From Leucoraja erinacea (taxonomy: Eukaryota), in NCBI RefSeq assembly GCF_028641065.1, contig NC_073391.1, positions 25,544,001 through 25,608,000 on the forward strand: a stretch of 64,000 bases of DNA. The letters run 5' to 3'. Shown piece after piece: positions 26,882-55,785 of the stretch (the first letter of the stretch is position 1; each line of letters opens with the position of its first letter). Made by a program: the position numbers and the translations under genes. Below the pieces are notes generated by a model that was not told the origin of the DNA, did not search any database, and worked only from the letters and a program-made list of their open reading frames with translations.

Positions 26882-28367
26882 CTAGACTAAGTGGGACCGT
26901 TGTGGCATATCACACGGGAGGGCTGGTCCCCCAATGCAATATTCTACTTCTCCACCAATTCCAATATTGGGGGGGTTTCTGGAGCGCTAGTATGGGTGTT
27001 GTGTGCTGGAGGGACTGGTTTCTAGAGGGCTAATATGGACCGTGGGCCGAATGGATTCTTGGGCTGGTGGCTCTGTCACTCAAGCCTGTTGTGCTGGCAG
27101 CTCACTCACGGCTGGTGGGCTCGCAGTTGACTCAAGGCTATTCCTTGATATTCCATTTCAAGCAGGGTGCAAGGCCACCAAATTCAAGTGCAGGTTCATA
27201 CCACTTCAAGCAGGGTGCAAGGCCACCAAATTCAAGTGCAGCTTCATACCACTTCAAGCACGGTGCAAGGCCAGTAAAGACAGCGAGTCGTCACCTCTTC
27301 CTCCTCCATGTTGCAGAGACTGAGCCACGCCCACACTTCTGGGTTTTATAGTCCCTCCCCCACTCCCACCAGAAGGGGCATGGCCTTCATGGTGTGATTG
27401 ACAGGAGAGAGAATCTCAACATTATTTAAACACTAATAACTCTTTTATTTTTCATCGATGGGTAAAATCCTCGGCACCTGATGAGCAGAGGGGACTCTTG
27501 AAGTAAGATGGCCAAAAATCACAGCCGTATGTTGTAGTGTTTTTTTCTAAAATCCATATAAAGCACAAACAGGAAGTGGTCAAGATTAGACTTTTAATTA
27601 TATATAGAAGGCAAGGCAACTTTAATTAGGCAAGGCGACTTTAATTAGGCAAGGCGACTTTAATTAAATTAGGCAACACAGCTTTAGTATTTCCAAACCA
27701 AAGGCAACACATTAGCATTTCCAAACCAAAGGCAACACAGCTTTAGTATTTCCAAACCAAAGGCAACACAGCTTTAGCATTTCCAAACTATATTTTCAAA
27801 CCACATTAAGGGCACTGACGGGTCAGTAAAACCACTCACAGTTTAGTAGACATGTGTTCAGTGTTATTCACAGCTCAGACTGAGACGGGACCCTCTCGGT
27901 CCTCCATCTTGCAGAGACTGACTGAAGCACTTCAAACCTCTGGGTTCTATACTCCCTCCGGAAGTGGCGTGGCCTTCAGGAGAGAGAATCTCAACATTTT
28001 TTTAAACACTAATAACTCTTATTTTTCATCAATTGGAAAAATTCTCTTGTCCTGCGCAGAGGGGGAGGACTCTGTAAGATGGCCAAAAATCACAGCCGTA
28101 AGTGGCAGTGTTTTTTCCACACCAAAGGCAAGGCAGCTTTAGCACTTTCAAAACAAAGGCAAGGTAGCTTTAGCACTTTCAAACCAAAGGCAACACACCT
28201 TTAGCACTTTCTAACCAAAGGCAACATAGTTTTAGTACTTTCAAACCAAAGCACACTTTTGCAGCTGTGCAGCAGAGGGGGACTCTGAGTAAGATGGCCA
28301 AAATTTTTCTAAAATCAATACACAGTGCAACAGGAATTGGTCATGATGAGACTTTTAGTAATATAGA
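26882..28367 (-). mobile_element. Non-autonomous Helitron, same family as 35984-37513
   Basis: Same ends A|TCTATATTACTAAAAG (28367) and CCCACTTAGTCTAG|T (26882); 3' hairpin partly lost; first ~700 bp colinear with the other copy. Confidence 0.85.
27609..27790. repeat. 19-bp and ~29-bp minisatellites inside Helitron
   Basis: aggcaaggcgactttaatt x3, then ccaaaccaaaggcaacacagctttagtattt-like x4; a related ~29-bp array at 28120-28260. Confidence 0.85.
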
Positions 28368-35505: not shown

Positions 35506-36297
35506 ATATTCCTCCAAACCCGTCCTATCCCTGTACCTGTCTAACTATTTCCTTAAATGTTGGCATGTACCTTGCCTCAATTACCTCCACTGGCAGCTTG
35601 ATCCATACACCGACCGCCCATTGTGTGAAAAAGTTATTTCACAAATTCCTATTAAATCTTTTCCCCTTCACCTTAAACCTTTGTCTGGTCCTCAATTCAC
35701 CTACTCTGGGCAAGCGACTGTGAGATTACCCAATCTATTCCTCGCATTATTTTATATACCTCTATAAGATCACCTCTTTGTTCACGTAGCAGCTGCAATT
35801 TGAATCAAATATTTTAGTATTTATTCTACAGCCTACAGCACAAGGCTATCTGTAAAATGGTTAGTTTGAGAAATTAACACAGTAAATTAGATTTTAAATG
35901 AGCAGTTTTGCAAAATATAAAATTAGCATTTCCTAGCCTAGTTAGCTAGTGGGCAAGGTTGATGTCATCATTGGTAGAGAAGACTAGACTAAGTGGGACC
36001 CATTGGGTCCCATGTTCACACGGGAGGGCTGGTCCCCCGATGCAATATTCCACCTCTCCACCAATTCCAATATTGGTGGCCAGTTGGGGGGGGGGGGGGG
36101 GGGGGGGGCGGCTTTCTGGAGCGCTGGTATAGGTGTGTTGGCTGCAGGGACTGCTGATCTTCAGAGGTCTAGTATGGACATTGTGGGCCAAATGGATTCT
36201 AGTGGTGGCAGCTCAGTCCCCCAAGCCTGATGTGCTGGCAGCTCACTCACGGCTAGTGGGCTGGCAGTTGACTTACGGCTATTCCTTGAAACTCCAT

Positions 36298-36790
36298 TTC
36301 AAGCAGAGTGCAAGGCCACCAAATTCAAATCCATTTTTGTACCATTTCAAGCAGGATGCAAGGCCACCAAATTCAAGTGCAGTTTTTTACCTCTTCGAGC
36401 GGGGTGCAAGGCCATAAAATGCAAGTGCAGTTTCATACCACTTCAAGCAGGGTGCAAGGCCACCAAATTCAAGTTCAGTTTCCTACCACTTCAAGCAGGG
36501 TGCAAGGCCACTAAATTCAAGTGCAGTTTCATACCACTTCAAGCTGGGTGCAAGGCCACCAAATTCAGGTTCAGTTTCCTACCACTTCAAGCAGGATGCA
36601 AGGCCACTAAATTCAAGTGCAGTTTCATACCACTTCAAGCAGGGTGCAAGGCCACCAAATTCAAGTGCAGTTTCATACCATTTCAAGGAGGGTGCAAGGC
36701 CACCAAATTCAAATGCAGTTTCATACCATTTCATGCAGGGTGCAAGGCCACCACATTCAAATGCAGTTTCATACCATTTCAAGCAGGGTG
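36298..36790. repeat. 48-bp minisatellite, ~10 copies, inside Helitron
   Basis: Unit ttcaagcagggtgcaaggccaccaaattcaagtgcagtttcataccac; the same unit occurs ~2.5 times at 27157-27272. Confidence 0.92.
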
Positions 36791-37179
36791 AAACCACCAT
36801 GAAACCACCATAAAACCACACAAAACACCACACTCACAGTTCAGTAGACATTCAGTGTGTTCAGTTGATTCACAGCTCAGAGTCGTGACCTCTCCCTCCC
36901 CCATCATGCAGAGACTGAGCCACACCCACACTTCCGGATTTTATAATCCCTCCCCCTCCTACCAGAAAAGATGTGGCCTTCATGGCGTGATTGACAGGAG
37001 AGGGATTCTCAACATTTTTTAAACACTAATAACACTTTTATTTTTCATTGATGGGAAGAATCCTCTGCACCTGATGAGCGGAGGGGGACCGAGTAAGATG
37101 GCCAAAAATCACAGCCGTAAGTGGTAGCGTTCTATCTAAAATGAATATAGTGCAAACAGGAAGTTGTTAAGTTTAGACA

Positions 37180-37380
37180 AACAACCATTTGCAGTGCCTT
37201 TTACTTCAACCCAAAACCTCCAAACAACCATTTGCATTGCCTTTTCACTTCCAGCCAAAACCCCCAAGCAACGATTTGCAGTGCCTTTTCACTTCAACCC
37301 AAAACCCCCCAAGCAACCATTTGCAGTGCCTTTTCACTTCAACCCAAACCCCCCAAGCAACCATTTGCAGTGCCTTTTTA
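37180..37380. repeat. ~42-44-bp minisatellite, ~5 copies, inside Helitron
   Basis: Unit caaccatttgcagtgccttttcacttcaacccaaaacccccaag. Confidence 0.85.
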
Positions 37381-39880: not shown

Positions 39881-40338
39881 GGTAGCCAATATCTACAAGA
39901 CCATTCATGACATTTGGAAAGCTCATAAGATTAAAAGTTGGGAAGAATGAATGTTTATTTATTTTTTTTAATTTCAAGAAATTGTCCCTCAAAACATGAA
40001 AATTATCCAATATACTGCAACAGTCATGTTGCTAATTACAGTATATATGTAAATCCTATAAGCAAATGGAATGACTAGCATGACATTTTTTTTTTCACCA
40101 ACAATTCATGAACTTCAAGACTGAGAGACATTTGCAAAGGTTTCAGGCCCTCTGCCCAATGGCAAGATGGTCTTAAAAGTGTGGTTGTTCAATACTTTGG
40201 CTTTGCAGCAGCTGCTCATATCGCCAGTGTATTTCTTAAGTAAATTTGTACATTGGAAAGTGCCAGCCTGAAATAGTCAATTATGGACAGCTCCTTGAAA
40301 TGGAAGATCAGCACGTTTCCATACATTATTTGTAACAG

Positions 40339-41100
40339 TGTAAATAGCTTGTTCTAAGCTTCCCCTCAGTCTAGTTTCAGTCAAAAATCACTGAATCATG
40401 CACTTGCGCATCTAAACTTTATTTTGACAAAACACAATTACAGTTCCAACTACTGTACCTAACCACCGCGGGTTCAATCCTTGTATCTGCCTGGTCAAGC
40501 CCTCTTGGCCTCGCTCAAACAGAAACATTCCAGAAGGTCAAGCAGTCCTAAGCGCTCTCCCAGATGACCGACACAGGACCTCGTGGCAGCGGATATTTAC
40601 AGGAACCCGGACCTCGAGGGGCCGAATCACAGGTGGGTAGTCTCTTTACAATCCAATTACAGATATCGATTAACTCCATACATGACAGACATTTCCCTAA
40701 CCCAATAATACAGTGGCTGATGCATTATATTCAAACAGTGTTTCTCAGAGGAAGCGAACATTGCAACATGTGCCCTGATATGCAAGAAAACCAGACAGGG
40801 CTCAATACTTAATCCAATCAACGTCCAGCAAAGTAAAGTTTCGCAACATTGTTTACAACGTATATGTCTGGTTTGCATTCATCCAATCCATTCTATGCAT
40901 TTTGCACCTCATTGTCAGGGTCCGCAGATGTTCCCATTTTCTTCCTGCAGCTCTGATCTAGGCTCTAGACAAACTGGCACCATTCTGCAGCTTGCCCATT
41001 TCTACAGAAAGCACTTTTAAATTGACCAAATGACCTGGCAGCCCAGAAGCCTTTACTCAATTTTAGGGTCCTAGCCTCTCCAATTTGGCCAGGATTAACA
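40339..41100 (-). repeat. 3' LTR of the provirus
   Basis: Minus strand starts TGTTAATCCTGG and ends GCTATTTACA; AATAAA (minus) at 40418-40423; preceded on the minus strand by purine tract ATAAAAGAAAGGAA (41101-41114). Confidence 0.92.
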
Positions 41101-42899
41101 TTCCTTTCTTTTATCATATATGATAAACCATCATTTATGATAACTAAGTAGTCAGATAATCAGATATACATATGTATGTCCATTACATTTTCCATCTATC
41201 AACAACACAAGATGATGCCTATTCCCAGAATCTTATCAAGCTTCCCGATTTTTCACAATTTCCATCTGATGACTCTTCACCTCCCGAGTTTTCGTGGGCG
41301 CAAATTCCCTCCATCTGTGTTGTTGCCCATTCTTCTATCCCTTTCCATAGTTGAACCTATAACCTATAATTCCTGAAAAACTTGGGATAAAGCAAGTTAC
41401 CACTCATGTCCAAATACGTCCCCATACATTCATTGTAATTCTGCTATACTATCCCTTTTCCATTTCACTATCCCTAGCCTATATTCTGCTCTATCACTGT
41501 ATTACTATTTCTATTCAGTTCTATAATATACTCTTTACTATCCTAGGATCAACACTATTCAGCTCTCTCTATAGTCACACGATGTTATAATATGTCTATC
41601 TGATGATGGTTTCTCATATAAATTTCAGCTGGGTTCAATCCAGATTTCCCTACAGACGTGACTCTTATTTAAAGCAGACCATGATAAATGTTCCAATTTA
41701 ACCAAATTCAGCCTCAGCCTTCAAATTTACTCTTTTAAATTTCAGTGTCCATCTCATTCCACAGCATTGTGGATGATAACACAATTCCATTCCAATTCCT
41801 GTGGAATTCCCAGCTGTTCAAATTTAAACAATCAATTTCCATATGTGGTCAATTTCATCATAAATCCAATTAAGAAAGCCAATTTTAAATCTAGGGACAA
41901 TTTCTTTCCACCTTGATAATAGAAGCCACTTTACCATCAAGGGTTAGACAATTTAGATCCATCGGTTAAATACATCGACTGATATCTCCACACCCATTCT
42001 AATTTCTCCTTCTAATTCAACAGACTTCTCCTCCAGTACTTCTTGCTTAGTATGTTGGCTCAGGTCTCAGTCTAGGGGTTCTTGCTTATACCAGTTTCTT
42101 AACCACTGAGTAATTTCTAGGTGGTCTCTTAAAGGGAAGTTCTGTTGTTCCCAGTTCCTCTTTTGACCATTTCCAATTCCACCTCTCATGTTCCCTGAAT
42201 AATTTCCATGTTACCAGATCTTCCCAAGTTCCATCCTTCCTGATGTTCTCTGAATAATCCTTCCCATCTTTGGCTGCCTGTCTGGGGATGAGACAATAAC
42301 AATATCAATTAATAATCAAACTCCAAATATTCCTAAGCCAAATCTCACAAGTCTGTTCCAAATCCGAAACTTTTAAGTCCCTCCAATTCATTTCCATATA
42401 ATTTAGAGACCGAATTCAAAATGTTATAAACTTATTTCTAATAATCATAATTTAGACACAAAGTAAGTGTTCTACCCCAAACCACAGAGGAATGAATGTC
42501 TTATTCAGATTCAGTTCTTCAAAGTGGAGCTTGCTACAATAGTCGTCGTAGGTTGTCGGTGTTGTTTCTTTAGGGAAGATTAGATATTGTTACTTTCCTT
42601 CTTTCACTGGTGTCAAAACTTGATGATGTTAAAGTTGGGTACTAGGGTAGGTTTTCTTCTTCTTCTTTTCCTGATGTCCGTTTCGAGGGAGTGGGGATTC
42701 TGAGGAGCAGCTTTCTCTATCGGCTGGCCTTCCCAGATTTGTCTTAAAGGGACAGGACAGTATCTTTTCCTCCTGTTTTTTGATTCCTGTTTCTGGGGAG
42801 CTACATTACCTTTGCTGTCTTCCGCCCATTCTCAAGGGGCCTGTATATTCTTTACCTCACTCCCCAGATAGTATGTTATCGATTATACTGTCCTGTAGG

Positions 42900-44640
42900 C
42901 ACAAACTCAGTAACACGTTAGTATAACAGTTCCTTTCCCTACTCCTGTACAAGTTTGTTTCTTCTCTCCCTAGTGCCATTTCTTTCTCACACCAGCTACA
43001 ATGTTTCCCTTACCTATAGTCCTTCTTCACTGTGGGTTCTTGATAATTGGATTCTTTGTGTCTTCTCCCAGGATTTGGAAGGGGGTGATGTTCTTTCTGG
43101 TTTTTATTGCCATTTTTGGGCCATGTGAGGACGCCTTCAGATTTAATAGATGGTATTTAACTGGCAGGTTAAGGCTTAAGAAATGGGTTTGATTGTCAAA
43201 TGTTCCTGCCCCCTGATCTCCTTGCCAGTGTCCTCGTCCTCTACGCTCGGGGTCTCAAGTGTCCTGGTGCCCTCTTGGAATCAACTGGTTTCTGAAACCC
43301 CGTGGCCCTCTTCTTTGCCCCCTTCTTTCTCGGTTGTACTCCCTCACAGTCCAAAGTCCCAATTTCCCACAGTTGCAGCACTGGTCTGGTCGGACAACCC
43401 TATATCCCCTCCAGCCAAACCGAGGAAACGTTGGCTATCGGAATGGCAGATCTATCCAAGCTTTGAGATCTTCCTCCTCGTCTTCCTCCGTAGTTATTTC
43501 TCTTTAAAAAAAATTTTAGTATAGGTCTCTGAGCTGCCGCTGGATCAGGCTGCATTAAAGTGCGAACGTCTGCGGCCCGGGAGTCATTTACACCTACTGC
43601 GGAACTTAATACCAAAGGTGGAGTAGGCAGCTTTCTACAAACGAACTGCCTACGGGAAATCCATTCTATACCCCCATCGTCAGGGAATTGCTTAGATATA
43701 ATATTATCAATGTCAGGATCAATTCCTCCGTATCCTCCTGCTGTCTCACCCTCAGCAAAGCTCAAGGGGCCTGTATATGTACTTCAGGAAGGATTCCTTC
43801 ATTTTCCCACTGCTGGATTTTCTAATTAACTTTGGGGCCCAATTCGACAGAACCTTCCTTCTAGCCCCTTGATCTCCTATACTATCCCCCACTGGTGGAC
43901 CAATCATAGCATCTACAGGATCCTTCCCCGATTTTTCCACTTCAGATTTGAATTTAGTGAGAGGAGCCGAAGATACCGTTGACACCTCCCGAATGCCCTG
44001 CTCGCGAGCTGCACATGGTGTCTCTGAACTGAAAACATGAGAGTGCTGTGAGGAATGCTGTGGCTCCATTCCGAAAAATTTTACCCACCCTGTATATATT
44101 TGAGCCTCTCTCCCTTCGAGGTCAACAGATACTGCTGCACTTTTACCAAATTTAATAATTTTCATTTTAGTCGGCACCTCCCCTTTAAGAGCCATCTCAG
44201 TAGTTTCCCTTGTAGAAGATGGTATTCACTCCTGCTCCTGCTGTTGGCTTCCACTATCTTCCTTTCCCTGTTCTGGAATGTCTCGAGAAGGACCAGTTCT
44301 CGCGTGTTCCCCTCTAATCCCTAATTTACAAGCGGCCATTCTTAGAGTGGACAGCAAAACGATCTCTTTATTTATTTTCCTTCTAGTGAAGAACATTCTC
44401 CATATTCCAATTAGCTCATTCCTTTCTTCACTGTTTCCATATTGTTTAACAATTGTTTCTACGTAGTTTATTCCTATTACAGATTTGAGTCCACCCAGCG
44501 GCCAAAGTTCACTTCTCAAAACTCCGTTTAATTCTCCTGATAATCCTCTTAATCTATCTGCTTCATGTGGAAGATCTCGCAAAATATTCTTATTGGTCTT
44601 CCGGGTCAATCGAGAAGTCCTTCTCTGAGACATTCCCCAT
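42900..44640 (-). pseudogene. gag: Decayed retroviral gag
   Basis: ATG GGG AAT (MGN, myristoylation-type start) at 44640; frameshifted matrix-like segment ...LRSELWPLGG...; broken ORFs 44226-44687, 43752-44195, 43400-43765; degenerate knuckle-like CSWCEKE-x-H at 42970-43000 (needs a 1-nt frameshift). No capsid major homology region recognised by eye. Confidence 0.6.
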
Positions 44641-46608
44641 TTTTCTGTATATATAGTTTTATATTCCCCATTATAGTTATAATACATAATAAAATTCCAG
44701 ACTCTAACACCTATTCAAACTCACTCCTTCCTTTCAGACTCCAAGGTCAATGGAATCTCTCCCACACTATGGCTAATCGTCTCTCAGATTCACACCTATT
44801 CGCACAATTCGTTACTCAATCGTTCCTCAATACTTCCAACCGTTACTCAATCACTCCTATTCAATTATTCAAACCACTCGCTCGTATTCAATCGCTCTCC
44901 CAACTCTCTTATCAGTTAGATCACAAACACTTCATTCAACTCTAAACTTTCAAACAAAGGATCACAACCCAAGACTCCAACTCTCAATCACAGTCTCTTC
45001 CAAGCAGCAATCTCTCCCACTCAATCCACTTTAAGTTCGCGCACAGACAGACAAATCCGAACCACGCTAATAAACCTATAATCAGAAATTAAAGTATTTA
45101 AAGTATAAGGTCAGCGGAATGACTCCTCCCCCGACACAGCAATCGACAGAGTACAAACCCTGATCGAACCACCACGACTCAGATTCTCACAATACTACAA
45201 TCTAAACAATTTCAAATAATTCAAACACACTTTTACTTCAATTATCTAATCCTTAAATCCTTGAACACTCACACAAGCAGCAATACAAATGGCGGTCCGC
45301 GAACTGAGCACACTCTAAATCTTAACTTTCTAAATGTTAATACAATCTAAATTTATTTACATGCACAAAATATTTACACAATTCGGATCTGATAACAATA
45401 CAAAAAGCTAGATTTTTACAATTTACAAAAATGATTTAAAGCACTAGCGCACAGTTTACAAACACTTGATCTCAATGCCGCGTCACGCTGTTATCAATCA
45501 GTGAACCTCTCCCTCCGATACCGAAGATTATTCCCTTCCTAGGTTACTCTTTGCTGAGGGGTACTACTCCTTAAATGACTACTTTTTGTCCCAAATGTTA
45601 CTATACTCACGCTAAGACTGGACCTCTATAGGGGGACCTCCTAAGTTTTACAGAATTAGGGGTACCCTTCGCATTCGGGTTACTTTTCACCAAGTAAATC
45701 AGGTTCCCATCTCTCAGGTACTTTTCGCTATCAGATACTAATCGACCAGAGGGTTACTATTCACTATTGATCAGCCGCTATTCGGAATCGATCATGGACA
45801 TGCACAAACTCCGAAGTTCTATCTACGCAGAATTTGAATTCTACCGTACGGGCAGAACTTCAATGTGAAATTCTGTATTTGGAAATTTGATTCTGCAAAT
45901 CTAGACACGTTCTCGAACTCCTAGTTGTGGTGCGTACCACTCCACATACGCGGGCTCGCTAATCAAACTAAATTGCCCAATGAAAAAATCTCGAATGGAC
46001 TAGAGTACTCTCGGCCAATCTATACTCTATCCATCGAGCCCAGTACTTTTATGAGGTTCCTCGTCCGTCACTCCAGGGAGGGACCCAGATGCCTTCACGC
46101 AGACACCCCTCTGCTGGGCACTGAGGGTTCAGCGCCTAGCCTCTTCGCACTGGCAGTCAATGCCGATTTTCAGAAAGCACTTTCCAATCAGCGCTCCCGG
46201 CAAAGATAGATCAATACGTAGACCAGACCTGTGTTTCAATACCCCTCCAATTGGATACCAAATCTGGACAGTGGGCCACCCTTCGCCCAATGAAGCGCGT
46301 CAGGCTCTCGTTAAAGCAGCTGCAGTCTGCCAACTACGACCAAGTTTTGGGCCACTCCACGCCCTGTTTTATGGGCCCCCCAACCCAAAGGAGTGCTAAA
46401 CACCCACCCCTCCCCCCCCCGATCTTACTAGATGCTATTCTAATGATCTTGATTGGACCTTTCCCAAGCCCGTGAATGATCGATCCACCCCGACTAGCGA
46501 AGTGCCGAAATTCAATGCGAAAACTGCACAGTGAGCCCAATTTCGGCACTCGCGATCGAAACAGCTTAACACCCTTGATCGCAAACTTGTGTTTGGGGAT
46601 CCATTGAG

Positions 46609-46626
46609 ATCCCGGATGAGCCCCCA
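46609..46626 (-). promoter_or_regulatory. Primer binding site, tRNA-Pro
   Basis: Minus strand TGGGGGCTCATCCGGGAT one base after the LTR CA; 17/18 match to the MLV-type Pro PBS TGGGGGCTCGTCCGGGAT. Confidence 0.92.
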
Positions 46627-46627
46627 A

Positions 46628-47606
46628 TGCAAATAGCTCATTCTAAGCTTCCCCCCAGTCTAGTTATAGTCAAAAATCACTGAATCAAGCACTTGCGCAT
46701 CTAAACTTTATTTTAACAAAACACAATTTCAGTTCCAACTATTGTACCTAACCACCGCAGGTTAGATCCTCGTATCTGCCTGCTCAAACAGAGACATTCC
46801 AGAAGATCACGCAGTCCTAAGCGCTCTCCCAGATGACCGACACAGGACCTTGTGGCAGCGGACTTTTGTAGGTCCCCGGACCTCGAGAGGCCGAACCACA
46901 TGGGGGTGGTCTCTTTACAATCCAATTACAGATATCAATTAACCTCATACATGACAGACATTTCCCTAACCCAATAATACAGTGGGTAATACATTGTATT
47001 CAAACAATGTTTCTCAGAGGAAACAAACATCGCAACATCTGCCCTGATATTCAAGAAAACCAGGCAAGACTTAATACTTAATCCAATCAACATCCAGCAA
47101 AGTAAAGCTTTGCAAGATTATTTACAATGTGTATGTCTGATTTACATTCATCCGATCCATTCTATGCATTTTGCATCTAATTGTCAGGGTCTGCAGATGT
47201 CCCCATTTTCTTCCTGCTGCTCTGACCTAGGCTCTAGACAAACTGGCACCATTCTGCAGCTCATCCCATTTCTACAGAAAGTACTTTTAAATTTACCAAA
47301 TGGCCTAGCAATCCAGAAGCCTTTACTCAATTTTAGGTCCTAGCTGCTCCAATTTGGCCAGGATTTGGGTGGGCGGCGCGACCCGCGTCGCAGCGGCCTC
47401 TACAGTCCGTCTGTCTTTTTTTATTTTCTTGTCTCGTTTGAGTGTAGTTTATAGTGTTTTTTTTAAACTGGGTATTATCTTTTAGAATCGTTTCCCTGTC
47501 TTGGTTCTTCTACTGGTTTGTATGACTGCAGAAACCAAATTTCGTTTGAACCTCAATGAGGTTCAAATGACAACAAATAAATTGTATCATTATATCAGGA
47601 TTAACA
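46628..47606 (-). repeat. 5' LTR of the provirus, interrupted near its 5' end by a 230-bp insertion
   Basis: Colinear with 40339-41100 with scattered substitutions and a ~19-bp indel; the terminal bases (caggattaaca on +) resume at 47596-47606 after the insertion. Confidence 0.9.
47366..47595 (+). mobile_element. Short non-autonomous retroposon inserted in the 5' LTR
   Basis: 7-bp TSD CAGGATT (47359-47365 and 47596-47602); GC-rich head gggtgggcggcgcg...cagtccgtctgt; 3' stem-loop tttgaacctc-aat-gaggttcaaa followed by tgacaacaaataaa and a short simple tail. Confidence 0.8.
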
Positions 47607-47959
47607 ACAGTACCAGTTAGTTTTGGAATGCCAAACTGCATCCTACCCTTCAAAAACAGCCAGTCCCCTTTCCGCAAGATCCTCATTGAAACAATTTTGG
47701 CCAAATTTCAGTCCCTTCCTTATTCAAACTGCATTCATGTCCACAATATCATTGTGTAAAAAAATAGCTTCCATTTTGACACTCAAGTCTGTGCTGGGGC
47801 TTTCAAAAAAAAAAAAAAGAATACAATTAGTCCAAGATAGCATTGAACAAATCTCTAATCTCGGTTCCATTTCATTACCAATCACCTCTATCTGCACCTA
47901 CTTATTATCTACTTCAACCACTGGAAAGAGTAAGAACGGAAAGCTACCACTACCCAACA

Positions 47960-54830: not shown

Positions 54831-55785
54831 GTCGGAAGTGGCGGCGCTGCCCTGGCAGCAGTGGCTCGCCTGCAGTCCGTTTGTTTTTACTTTTTTTGTG
54901 TTGTTTTTTTTTCGTTTTGTCTAGTTAAGTTTTTGTTTTTTAGGTTGTGTTTATGGGGGGGGGGGGGGGGGTTGAAACGGGGCTTGCTGTCTCTCCTTTC
55001 GGGGGAATGCGACTTTTTTGTCGTATCCCCCTTCTCTGCCTCCGTCTACGCTGAGGCCTAATGGCGGAGCTGGAGACCTCGAGACTCCGGGGGCAGAGCC
55101 AGTCAGGACTTGCCCTGGGCTCGCTCCCGTGAGGGCGGCCCAAGCTCGGGGCTGGAACGGCACTCTCGTGAGGGGCTGTGACGCTCCCGCGAGGGCGGGC
55201 TGAGACTCTCCCGTGAGGGGCTGTGGCGCTCCCGTCAGAGCGGCCCAGCTCGAGGGAGGTACGGCGCTCCCGTCGGAGCGACCCAGCTCGAGGGAGGTAC
55301 GGTGCTCCCGTCGGAGCGGCCCAGCTCGAGGGAGGAACGACACTCACGTGAGGGCGATCCTGCTCGGGGCTGGAACAGTGCTCCGGTGGCTGGGACGGCG
55401 TTCTGGCGGCGGTGACCTGAGTCCGGGGTTCAGCCGCGGGCTAGTGGCTGCGTCCGCTGGACTGGAGGGCAGCAGCTTCAACCACCCCGGGCCGCGGTGT
55501 TTGAGCCGGCCCGTTTGCGGTGTTCATGAGCCGAGGGACTGTTTGTACCATCGCCCGGTGGGGTATCGCCTCAGCGCAGAGGGAGAAGAGGAGGGCAGAG
55601 ACTGCAGCCCTAAGATTTTTGCCTTCACCACAGTGAGGAGGTGCTTGGGGGACTCACTGTGGTGGATGTTAATTTGTGTTTATTGTTGTTTATTATTGTA
55701 TTATTGTATGTATGACTGCAGGCACGAAATTTCGTTCAGACCGTAAGGTCTGAATGACAATAAAGGTAATTCTATTCTATTCTGA
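54831..55785 (+). mobile_element. GC-rich non-autonomous retroposon with internal ~33-bp tandem repeat, related to 47366-47595
   Basis: Similar head (gtggcggcgc...gcagtccgtttgt) and tail (gtatgactgcag...aaatttcgttcagacc-gtaa-ggtctgaatgacaataaa) plus (ttcta)n; internal repeats gctcccgtcggagcggcccagctcgagggaggtacgg at ~55110-55390; CpGs intact. Confidence 0.7.

What the first reader, a model, noticed from the sequence alone, without database searches (positions are those of the whole stretch)
40339..47606. Complete-ended elasmobranch ERV with no pol: long leader, gag remnant and an unexplained 3' region
Seen: both LTRs, ACAG TSD, a near-perfect tRNA-Pro PBS and a PPT, so all cis signals for packaging and reverse transcription are present. 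The 5.5 kb interior has ~2 kb of leader, ~1.7 kb of decayed gag and ~1.8 kb in which I find no protease DTG/DSG, YXDD or integrase motif. Known: Pro PBS plus 4-bp TSD fit gamma/epsilon-like retroviruses, and non-autonomous VL30-like elements are mobilised in trans. Inference: this may be a satellite ERV lineage of cartilaginous fishes rather than a random deletion product.
Basis: partly seen in the sequence, partly recalled or inferred. Interest (0 to 1): 0.7.

Follow-up and report, generated by a model that had tools for sequence, protein, structure and literature searches.

The report
Skate retrovirus parasite with capsid-less Gag
This is one worn copy of a large family of skate endogenous retroviruses that lost their enzymes and almost all of their capsid yet kept the rest of the gag gene under selection, which likely helped their RNA ride in particles built by related helper elements.

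Summary
The provirus is real: minus strand, two LTRs 9.7% apart, ACAG TSD, tRNA-Pro PBS and PPT. It is not a private deletion. It belongs to a non-autonomous class I ERV family (A) with well over a hundred copies. The "unexplained" 3' region is a collapsed pol with an integrase-core relic, homologous to an env-less gag-pol family (H) in the same genome, and it was dead before amplification. The gag is not simply decayed. In the source elements it was an open frame of about 490 codons: matrix-like part, spacer, ~35-residue capsid stub, zinc knuckle. It lacks ~200 capsid codons (0 of 56 loci hold the capsid body) yet shows dN/dS 0.29 between sublineages, against 0.86 and 0.98 off-frame. A sister family (C) has the same ends but a full gag and interleaves with A in the 3' tree. 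Some pol-bearing H copies carry A-type LTR halves and leaders. All three were active at the same time. Most likely the capsid-less Gag acted in cis to route its own RNA into helper particles, as reported for mouse IAP 1Δ1; this is untested.

The parts
40335..40338 (.). target-site duplication ACAG (left)
40339..41100 (-). 3' LTR, TG...CA, 762 nt
41101..41116 (-). polypurine tract
   Evidence: same tract in C copies
41117..41456 (-). 3' untranslated stretch, homologous to that of family H (65% identity)
41457..42037 (-). integrase-core relic (reference Pol residues ~1064-1195; motifs at 41979, 41781, 41641), dead in all frames
42038..43176 (-). rest of the collapsed pol; a patch at 42782-42937 maps to reference Pol residues ~241-297, upstream of the RT core; no protease or YXDD
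43177..44640 (-). capsid-less gag frame (~490 codons; broken in this copy, open in the source elements): Met-Gly start 44640, matrix-like part to ~44290, spacer, capsid stub ~43654-43547, linker, zinc knuckle ~43383-43340, tail
44641..46608 (-). leader (~1.97 kb), no conserved frame; 5' part homologous to the leader of H; ~95-nt private deletion near 45100
46609..46626 (-). primer-binding site for tRNA-Pro (17/18)
46628..47606 (-). 5' LTR, including a later insert
47366..47595 (.). 230-nt repeat inserted after integration, flanked by CAGGATT duplication
47607..47610 (.). target-site duplication ACAG (right)

Best explanation
This is a dead copy of a non-autonomous class I endogenous retrovirus family whose replicating members had lost pol and nearly all of capsid but kept a matrix-spacer-nucleocapsid Gag under purifying selection, and that protein likely acted in cis to bring its own RNA into particles made by helper elements. 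Shown: the family, the collapsed pol, the single in-frame loss of ~200 capsid codons, selection on the remaining protein, and sequence exchange with a full-gag sister (C) and with an env-less gag-pol family (H) of the same age. Inferred: H supplied protease, RT and integrase; H and/or C supplied capsid; the RNAs were co-packaged; the mini-Gag bound its own RNA through the zinc knuckle and reached the membrane assembly site through a Met-Gly matrix-like domain.
For: Family: ~17 of 40 scored places are collinear over the 3' region; 140 matches from 127 scored of 910 candidates with an A-type protein; 4-nt TSD exact in 13 of 18 two-ended A/C-type copies, within one mismatch in 15.

Dead pol: 36, 41 and 43 stop positions shared by at least half of 25 copies in the three phases; sense-strand Pol hits in 37 of 40 3' regions at E<=0.1, 0 of 40 in the reversed control.

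Open gag: no shared stop over ~490 codons in one phase against 28 and 37 in the others (17 copies; similar with 20 copies).

Selection: dN/dS 0.42 [0.37-0.49] within the window's subfamily and 0.29 [0.24-0.35] between sublineages 75% identical, against 0.86 and 0.98 off-frame and 0.67-0.72 in leader and 3' region. Shared non-CpG variants by codon position 43/44/81, private ones 204/170/169. Shared gaps are multiples of three in 8 of 9 cases, private gaps in 18 of 66.

No capsid: capsid start to zinc knuckle is 273 nt in A (median, n=13), 863 in C (n=11), 864 in H (n=1); capsid-body hit in 0 of 56 A-type loci; the missing stretch, modelled from C, matches retroviral capsids, MLV first (prob 1.00, E 2.5e-3).

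Exchange: A and C are interleaved in the 3' tree, A monophyly rejected, p-AU 1.6e-5; a pol-bearing copy has both LTRs H-like in the first 330 nt and A-like (85%) in the last 430.

Same age: median LTR K2P A 0.09 (n=16), C 0.076 (n=10), H 0.091 (n=5). A cis effect is reported for IAP 1Δ1 (PMC6466679, PMC7411935; passages).
Against: No experiment shows cis action, co-assembly or even translation. The matrix label rests on position and 23-38% identity to other Gag N-termini; its model was poor (pLDDT 59) with no fold match. The capsid fold match is above the tool's 0.001 line. The capsid stub itself is not measurably constrained (0.68 [0.35-1.16]). One phase of the integrase relic gives 0.58 [0.47-0.76], near but below the baseline. 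dN/dS is a pooled pairwise count; pairs are not independent. Sampled H is only 64% identical to A in the integrase relic, so it is a sister of the parent, not the parent. Some chimeras may have formed after insertion; the mosaic copy's flanks do not give a clean TSD. The zinc knuckle is intact in only 11 of 20 copies and Met-Gly in 16 of 20, as decay predicts.
Confidence: 0.6

Rival explanations
1. The capsid-less Gag was selected because it acts in trans, as a dominant-negative or decoy protein that interferes with competing elements or infecting retroviruses or serves the host, and not because it helps its own RNA.
For: Gag proteins of recently active non-autonomous ERVs have host roles in zebrafish (PMC12067270, first part and passages read). 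A membrane-bound, RNA-binding Gag that cannot build a lattice could poison assembly (inference). One A-type fragment is annotated as a skate gene.
Against: Constraint sits on shared variants while private mutations are flat across codon positions, so copies decayed once inserted. No full-length open copy was seen among those scored or aligned (longest stop-free stretches 118-401 codons in 20 copies). The annotated 326-codon stretch is not exceptional (3 of 20 copies reach 319 or more).
Confidence: 0.2
2. Only translation of the frame mattered (RNA stability, export or ribosome loading), not the protein.
For: Open frame and in-frame shared indels; the IAP 1Δ1 paper's title names translation as the determinant (seen only in reference lists).
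Against: Amino-acid changes are depleted well beyond stop avoidance, most in the linker and zinc-knuckle/tail (0.20, 0.18) and matrix-like part (0.30).
Confidence: 0.08
3. The selection signal is inherited: A copies arose repeatedly by deletion or recombination from a complete, unsampled A-type retrovirus.
For: A's matrix-like domain is far from both C and H (33-34% against 47% C-H), so an unseen donor is possible; only the best 40-150 candidates are scored per search.
Against: All diverged sublineages with both motifs share the short spacing (270-292 nt in 14 of 14); the junction linker aligns across them and is itself constrained; 0 of 56 loci have a capsid body.
Confidence: 0.1
4. A single provirus with a private deletion, or a purely non-coding VL30/ETn-like satellite.
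For: This copy has no long open frame and no Pfam hit.
Against: Many collinear copies and a selected frame.
Confidence: 0.02

Closest known systems
Mouse IAP 1Δ1 (PMC6466679, PMC7411935: passages; Saito 2008 not held)
   Same: Non-autonomous, internally deleted, keeps an in-frame gag-derived ORF, needs Gag and Pol from an env-less helper; its product is reported to aid mobilisation in cis.
   Different: Class II (beta-like) and a gag-pol fusion. Here: class I, a gag-internal deletion joining capsid stub to nucleocapsid, pol dead, and selection shown over sublineages 25% apart. Which Gag domains 1Δ1 keeps was not checked.
Zebrafish BHIKHARI Bik-1/Bik-2 (PMC12067270: first part and passages)
   Same: Fish ERVs that encode only Gag and need a partner for pol. 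Family C here has this layout.
   Different: Bik Gag keeps a full capsid and is lokiretrovirus-related; family A has lost capsid and its helper's RT is closest to MLV-type RTs.
ETn/MusD and VL30/MLV (PMC6466679: passages); bovine ERVK[2-1-LTR] C/D (PMC10924933: passages and section 20)
   Same: Defective element with intact cis signals, mobilised by a competent relative, with recombination between the two.
   Different: ETn has no coding capacity and bovine D elements lack intact genes; here a protein was kept under selection, and three tiers (H, C, A) coexist.
Elephant-shark epsilon-like ERVs, CmiERV II/III (PMC4422223: first of two parts; PMC4977317: first part and passages)
   Same: Class I ERVs of cartilaginous fish.
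   Different: That screen required pol plus env, so it could not see A, C or H. No sequence comparison was made here.

Membership tests
Class I (gamma/epsilon-like) ERV | TG...CA LTRs, PBS, PPT, 4-bp TSD | tested here: met
   TSD also readable as 4 nt in 2 of 3 H copies
Class I (gamma/epsilon-like) ERV | Pol closest to gammaretroviral Pol (tested on relative H) | tested here: met
   H RT-connection stretch: p80 RT chains (MLV/XMRV; virus names recalled) E~1e-46 against 1e-13 Ty3 and 1e-10 foamy; MLVIN_C over cut-off in H loci
Epsilonretrovirus-related clade | RT tree placement with WDSV/WEHV | not tested
   no reference sequences were fetched
Non-autonomous ERV (VL30/ETn type) | no functional pol/env, with the same defective layout in many copies | tested here: met
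Non-autonomous ERV (VL30/ETn type) | interior without coding capacity (stated for ETn) | tested here: not met
   open, selected gag frame
Non-autonomous ERV (VL30/ETn type) | related competent helper of the same age | tested here: met
   family H: shared PBS and LTR 3' end, same LTR ages, recombinants; helper role itself inferred
IAP 1Δ1-like | in-frame internal deletion giving a translated ORF | tested here: inconclusive
   in-frame, open and selected, but gag-internal rather than gag-pol; translation not shown
IAP 1Δ1-like | product aids mobilisation in cis | not testable with these tools
   needs a transposition assay
BHIKHARI-like gag-only ERV | Gag with full capsid, no pol/env | tested here: not met
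   A: 0 of 56 loci with capsid body. Sister family C meets it, but C loci were picked by their capsid.
Described Repbase/Dfam family | match to a catalogued entry | not testable with these tools
   no such library is held

The most novel reading that the evidence does not exclude
A three-tier retroviral consortium in skates: an env-less gag-pol helper, a gag-only parasite, and a hyper-parasite that swaps in a capsid-less matrix-nucleocapsid adaptor protein, kept by selection for a long time because it steers its own RNA into helper particles without building any shell.
Probability: 0.45. Interest if true: 0.8.

Novelty: new variant of a known kind. Interest (0 to 1): 0.62.

Why it matters
Why defective ERVs out-replicate their helpers is an open question; the bovine study read here says the molecular basis is unknown (PMC10924933, section 20). 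This family gives a natural, long-running case in which everything catalytic and the capsid were lost while matrix-like and nucleocapsid parts stayed under selection. That points to RNA capture and membrane targeting as the part of Gag worth keeping in cis. It also shows that skate genomes hold abundant env-less and pol-less class I ERVs that pol-plus-env screens miss.

Tried and rejected
Pfam on nine X-read frames of the interior: 0 families. The string MYLTDGS looks like an RNase H motif but overlaps the integrase motif in another frame and was rejected as chance. Env in the 3' region or in H: no tblastn hit with two env proteins from the same genome in 42 H loci, and integrase ends a median 305 nt before the LTR (n=26). 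Two other ERV families of this genome with long pol frames as helper: no meaningful DNA similarity to the element. Rfam on the element: 0 matches at E<=1. Protein database: only one relative, from a skate, in two searches limited to 152-548 residues; ESM Atlas gave no usable hit. Matrix model: low confidence, no fold match. Capsid profile against PDB sequences: best E 0.06, a gag polyprotein. RNA: no RNA holder listed; in one poly(A) run of another species, about 6% of it read, depth was 0-13 over LTRs and interior, from many copies, and most reads fell on the 230-nt insert: no conclusion on expression. 'Subfamily B' proved to be deleted copies of family C. Domestication of the annotated 313-aa fragment: not supported by stretch length. 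Literature: 10 searches listed no report of this family or of a selected capsid-less gag; listings only, most subscription journals are not held, and no supplements were read. ART-CH and MaLR parallels are recalled, not read.
Full report
OBSERVATION. The element lies on the minus strand. The 3' LTR is 40339-41100 and the 5' LTR 46628-47606, with ACAG on both sides. The LTRs differ at 72 of 740 aligned bases (52 transitions, 20 transversions; K2P 0.106). The PBS at 46609-46626 matches 17 of 18 bases expected from tRNA-Pro; a pattern for the tRNA 3' end found 21 genomic places, and the 3 of 21 examined are tRNA-Pro genes. A PPT adjoins the 3' LTR. Nine X-read frames of the interior gave no Pfam family. 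The host is a skate: the only database relative of the gag is named by NCBI as a Leucoraja erinacea protein, and this genome encodes it letter for letter.

IT IS A FAMILY. Searches of the own genome gave 815 first-look candidates for the 3' region, 3581 for the LTR and 272 for gag, with 40 scored each; these are not copy numbers. About 17 of the 40 scored 3'-region places match nearly the whole 1.9 kb. An A-type protein gave 140 matches from 127 scored of 910 candidates. Fetched copies repeat the same layout, interrupted by private insertions. A 4-nt TSD is exact in 13 of 18 copies with both ends, within one mismatch in 15, and absent in 3. Contigs of two other coded organisms bridge both junctions of this locus by more than 31 nt, with flanks about 1.3-1.5% different. 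A third falls one base short on the left and has no listed piece across the right. This shows an LTR at this site, not necessarily the whole provirus. The insertion is thus several times older than those species splits. No calibrated rate is available: the mammalian and shark rates quoted in PMC4422223 give 24 and 240 million years.

THE 3' REGION IS A COLLAPSED POL. An unbroken Pol from another ERV family of the genome hits the sense strand of 37 of 40 3' regions at E<=0.1 (22 at 1e-3; search space set to 2200 nt), almost all at integrase-core residues 1066-1200. Reversed sequences give 0 sense hits. The window copy alone scores only E 0.2-0.7 at protein level. A search for the MLV-type integrase C-terminal domain led to family H: LTR, Pro PBS, leader, gag, pol, a median 305 nt to the 3' LTR (n=26), and no hit with two env queries in 42 loci. 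At DNA level the window copy aligns to H over LTR, 5' leader, gag and the integrase-to-PPT stretch (E to 1e-49), with a weaker patch upstream of the RT core. An H RT-connection stretch is closest to p80-type RTs in the PDB (E~1e-46; Ty3 1e-13, foamy 1e-10). The relic was dead before amplification: 36, 41 and 43 stop positions are shared by at least half of 25 copies in the three phases.

THE GAG WAS ALIVE BUT CAPSID-LESS. In one phase no stop is shared across ~490 codons from a Met-Gly start (44640) to ~43177. The other phases have 28 and 37 shared stops (17 copies); an alignment of 20 closer copies gave the same picture, apart from one shared stop near the end that I attribute to a phase slip at a 1-nt gap. 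Against H and C the frame is collinear through a matrix-like domain, a spacer and the first ~35 capsid residues, then jumps to the pre-nucleocapsid region. From capsid start to zinc knuckle is 273 nt in A (median of 13 copies where both motifs were found), 863 in C (11) and 864 in H (1). It is 270-292 nt in 14 of 14 further copies from sublineages mostly 64-80% identical (20 loci examined). A capsid-body query hits 0 of 56 A-type loci, 21 of 42 H loci and 24 of 24 C loci, the last chosen by capsid. The model of that stretch from C (pLDDT 71) matches retroviral capsids throughout the hit list, MLV first, at E 2.5e-3. Downstream sequence is dead in all frames, so capsid cannot come from there.

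SELECTION. Pooled Nei-Gojobori dN/dS with codon bootstrap is 0.42 [0.37-0.49] among 20 close copies, against 0.81 and 0.86 off-frame and 0.67-0.72 in leader and 3' region. Between 8 near and 9 far copies (75% DNA identity) it is 0.29 [0.24-0.35], against 0.86 and 0.98. By part: matrix-like 0.30, spacer 0.32 and 0.30, linker 0.20, knuckle plus tail 0.18, capsid stub 0.68 (not distinguishable from baseline). Shared non-CpG variants fall 43/44/81 on codon positions 1/2/3, private ones 204/170/169. Shared gaps are multiples of three in 8 of 9 cases, private gaps in 18 of 66. So the protein was constrained while the elements replicated, and each copy decayed after insertion. Caveats: pairs are not independent, copies with large insertions were left out of these alignments, and one phase of the integrase relic gave 0.58 [0.47-0.76].

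PARTNERS. Family C shares A's LTR, leader and dead pol relic at within-family identity (A-C 0.879 against A-A 0.882 and C-C 0.874 in the integrase relic; both 0.64 to H). It carries a full gag, open in its source elements, with capsid dN/dS 0.46 (10 copies). A's matrix-like domain is 33-34% identical to C and H, which share 47%. In a tree of the 3' kilobase (21 A, 13 C, 8 H), A and C interleave, starred branches force six changes, and A monophyly is rejected (p-AU 1.6e-5). Of 20 further RT-bearing loci, four show A/C-type parts: mosaic LTRs, A-type leaders or the dead relic. In one, both LTRs (91% identical) are H-like in the first 330 nt and 85% A-like in the last 430, so the mosaic most likely predates integration; its flanks do not give a clean TSD. 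A, C and H share the PBS and LTR 3' end, and their LTR pairs have similar ages (medians 0.09, 0.076, 0.091).

MECHANISM. Inferred order: an env-less gag-pol ancestor lost pol, giving a C-like element; one lineage then lost ~200 capsid codons in frame, or received such a cassette, giving A; gag cassettes kept moving between shared ends. H-type elements would supply enzymes, and H or C the capsid. A protein with a Met-Gly matrix-like domain and a CCHC knuckle but no capsid cannot build a core (established knowledge of retroviral Gag). Selection on it is easiest to explain if it benefits the RNA that encodes it, by binding that RNA and bringing it to assembly sites. I put this at 0.6. Rivals are a trans-acting or host role (0.2), a signal inherited from an unseen complete virus (0.1), translation alone (0.08) and a private deletion (0.02). 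Cis action, co-assembly and translation are untested, and the matrix label has no fold support.

KNOWN SYSTEMS. It works like IAP 1Δ1, whose fusion protein is reported to act in cis while needing Gag and Pol in trans (PMC6466679 and PMC7411935, passages; the primary paper was not held). It is not a member: different class, different deletion. Family C resembles the gag-only BHIKHARI elements, which keep capsid (PMC12067270, first part and passages). ETn, VL30 and bovine D elements are the non-coding parallels (PMC6466679, PMC10924933, passages). The elephant-shark survey required pol plus env (PMC4422223, first of two parts). Ten library searches listed no description of this family or of a selected capsid-less gag. 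Repbase and Dfam could not be checked and no supplements were read. The scan's own index had nothing on this sequence; notes from other windows of this genome call the host a skate and offer a lead for the LTR insert.

VERDICT. Real, non-autonomous, a new variant of a known kind. Interest 0.62.

Noticed in passing
window 47366-47595: A 230-nt repeat with a 7-nt duplication sits 11 nt inside the 5' LTR. It is very abundant in genomic and poly(A) reads. Earlier notes on Penelope end-stubs in this genome are a lead only.
   Followed up: partly
window ~45098-45109: This copy lacks ~95 nt of leader present in most other A copies.
   Followed up: yes
L108-L127, L008, L021, L032, L034: Family C: same LTR, leader and dead pol relic as A but a full gag with capsid, open in the source elements, capsid dN/dS 0.46. 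It keeps ~300 nt more of the pol relic.
   Followed up: yes
L168/L174, L164, L172/L175, L173: Pol-bearing copies with mosaic LTRs, A/C-type leaders, or the dead A/C integrase relic behind an H-type RT.
   Followed up: partly
L128/L134 (G000:C11:18553921-18554859): An NCBI-annotated skate 'uncharacterized protein' (313 aa) is the downstream two-thirds of an A-type gag in an older sublineage.
   Followed up: partly
L060/L014 (G000:C12:23.54-23.56 Mb): An H-like element with gag and partial pol runs, through several kb not assigned here, into an A-type 3' half and LTR.
   Followed up: no
L055-L059: Two other class I ERV families with gag, pol and env-like frames, unrelated to this element at DNA level.
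   Followed up: no
window 27076-28251, 36294-37378, 55163-55384: Tandem arrays with 48-, 31-, 44- and 38-nt units; the 48-nt unit occurs at two places 9 kb apart.
   Followed up: no
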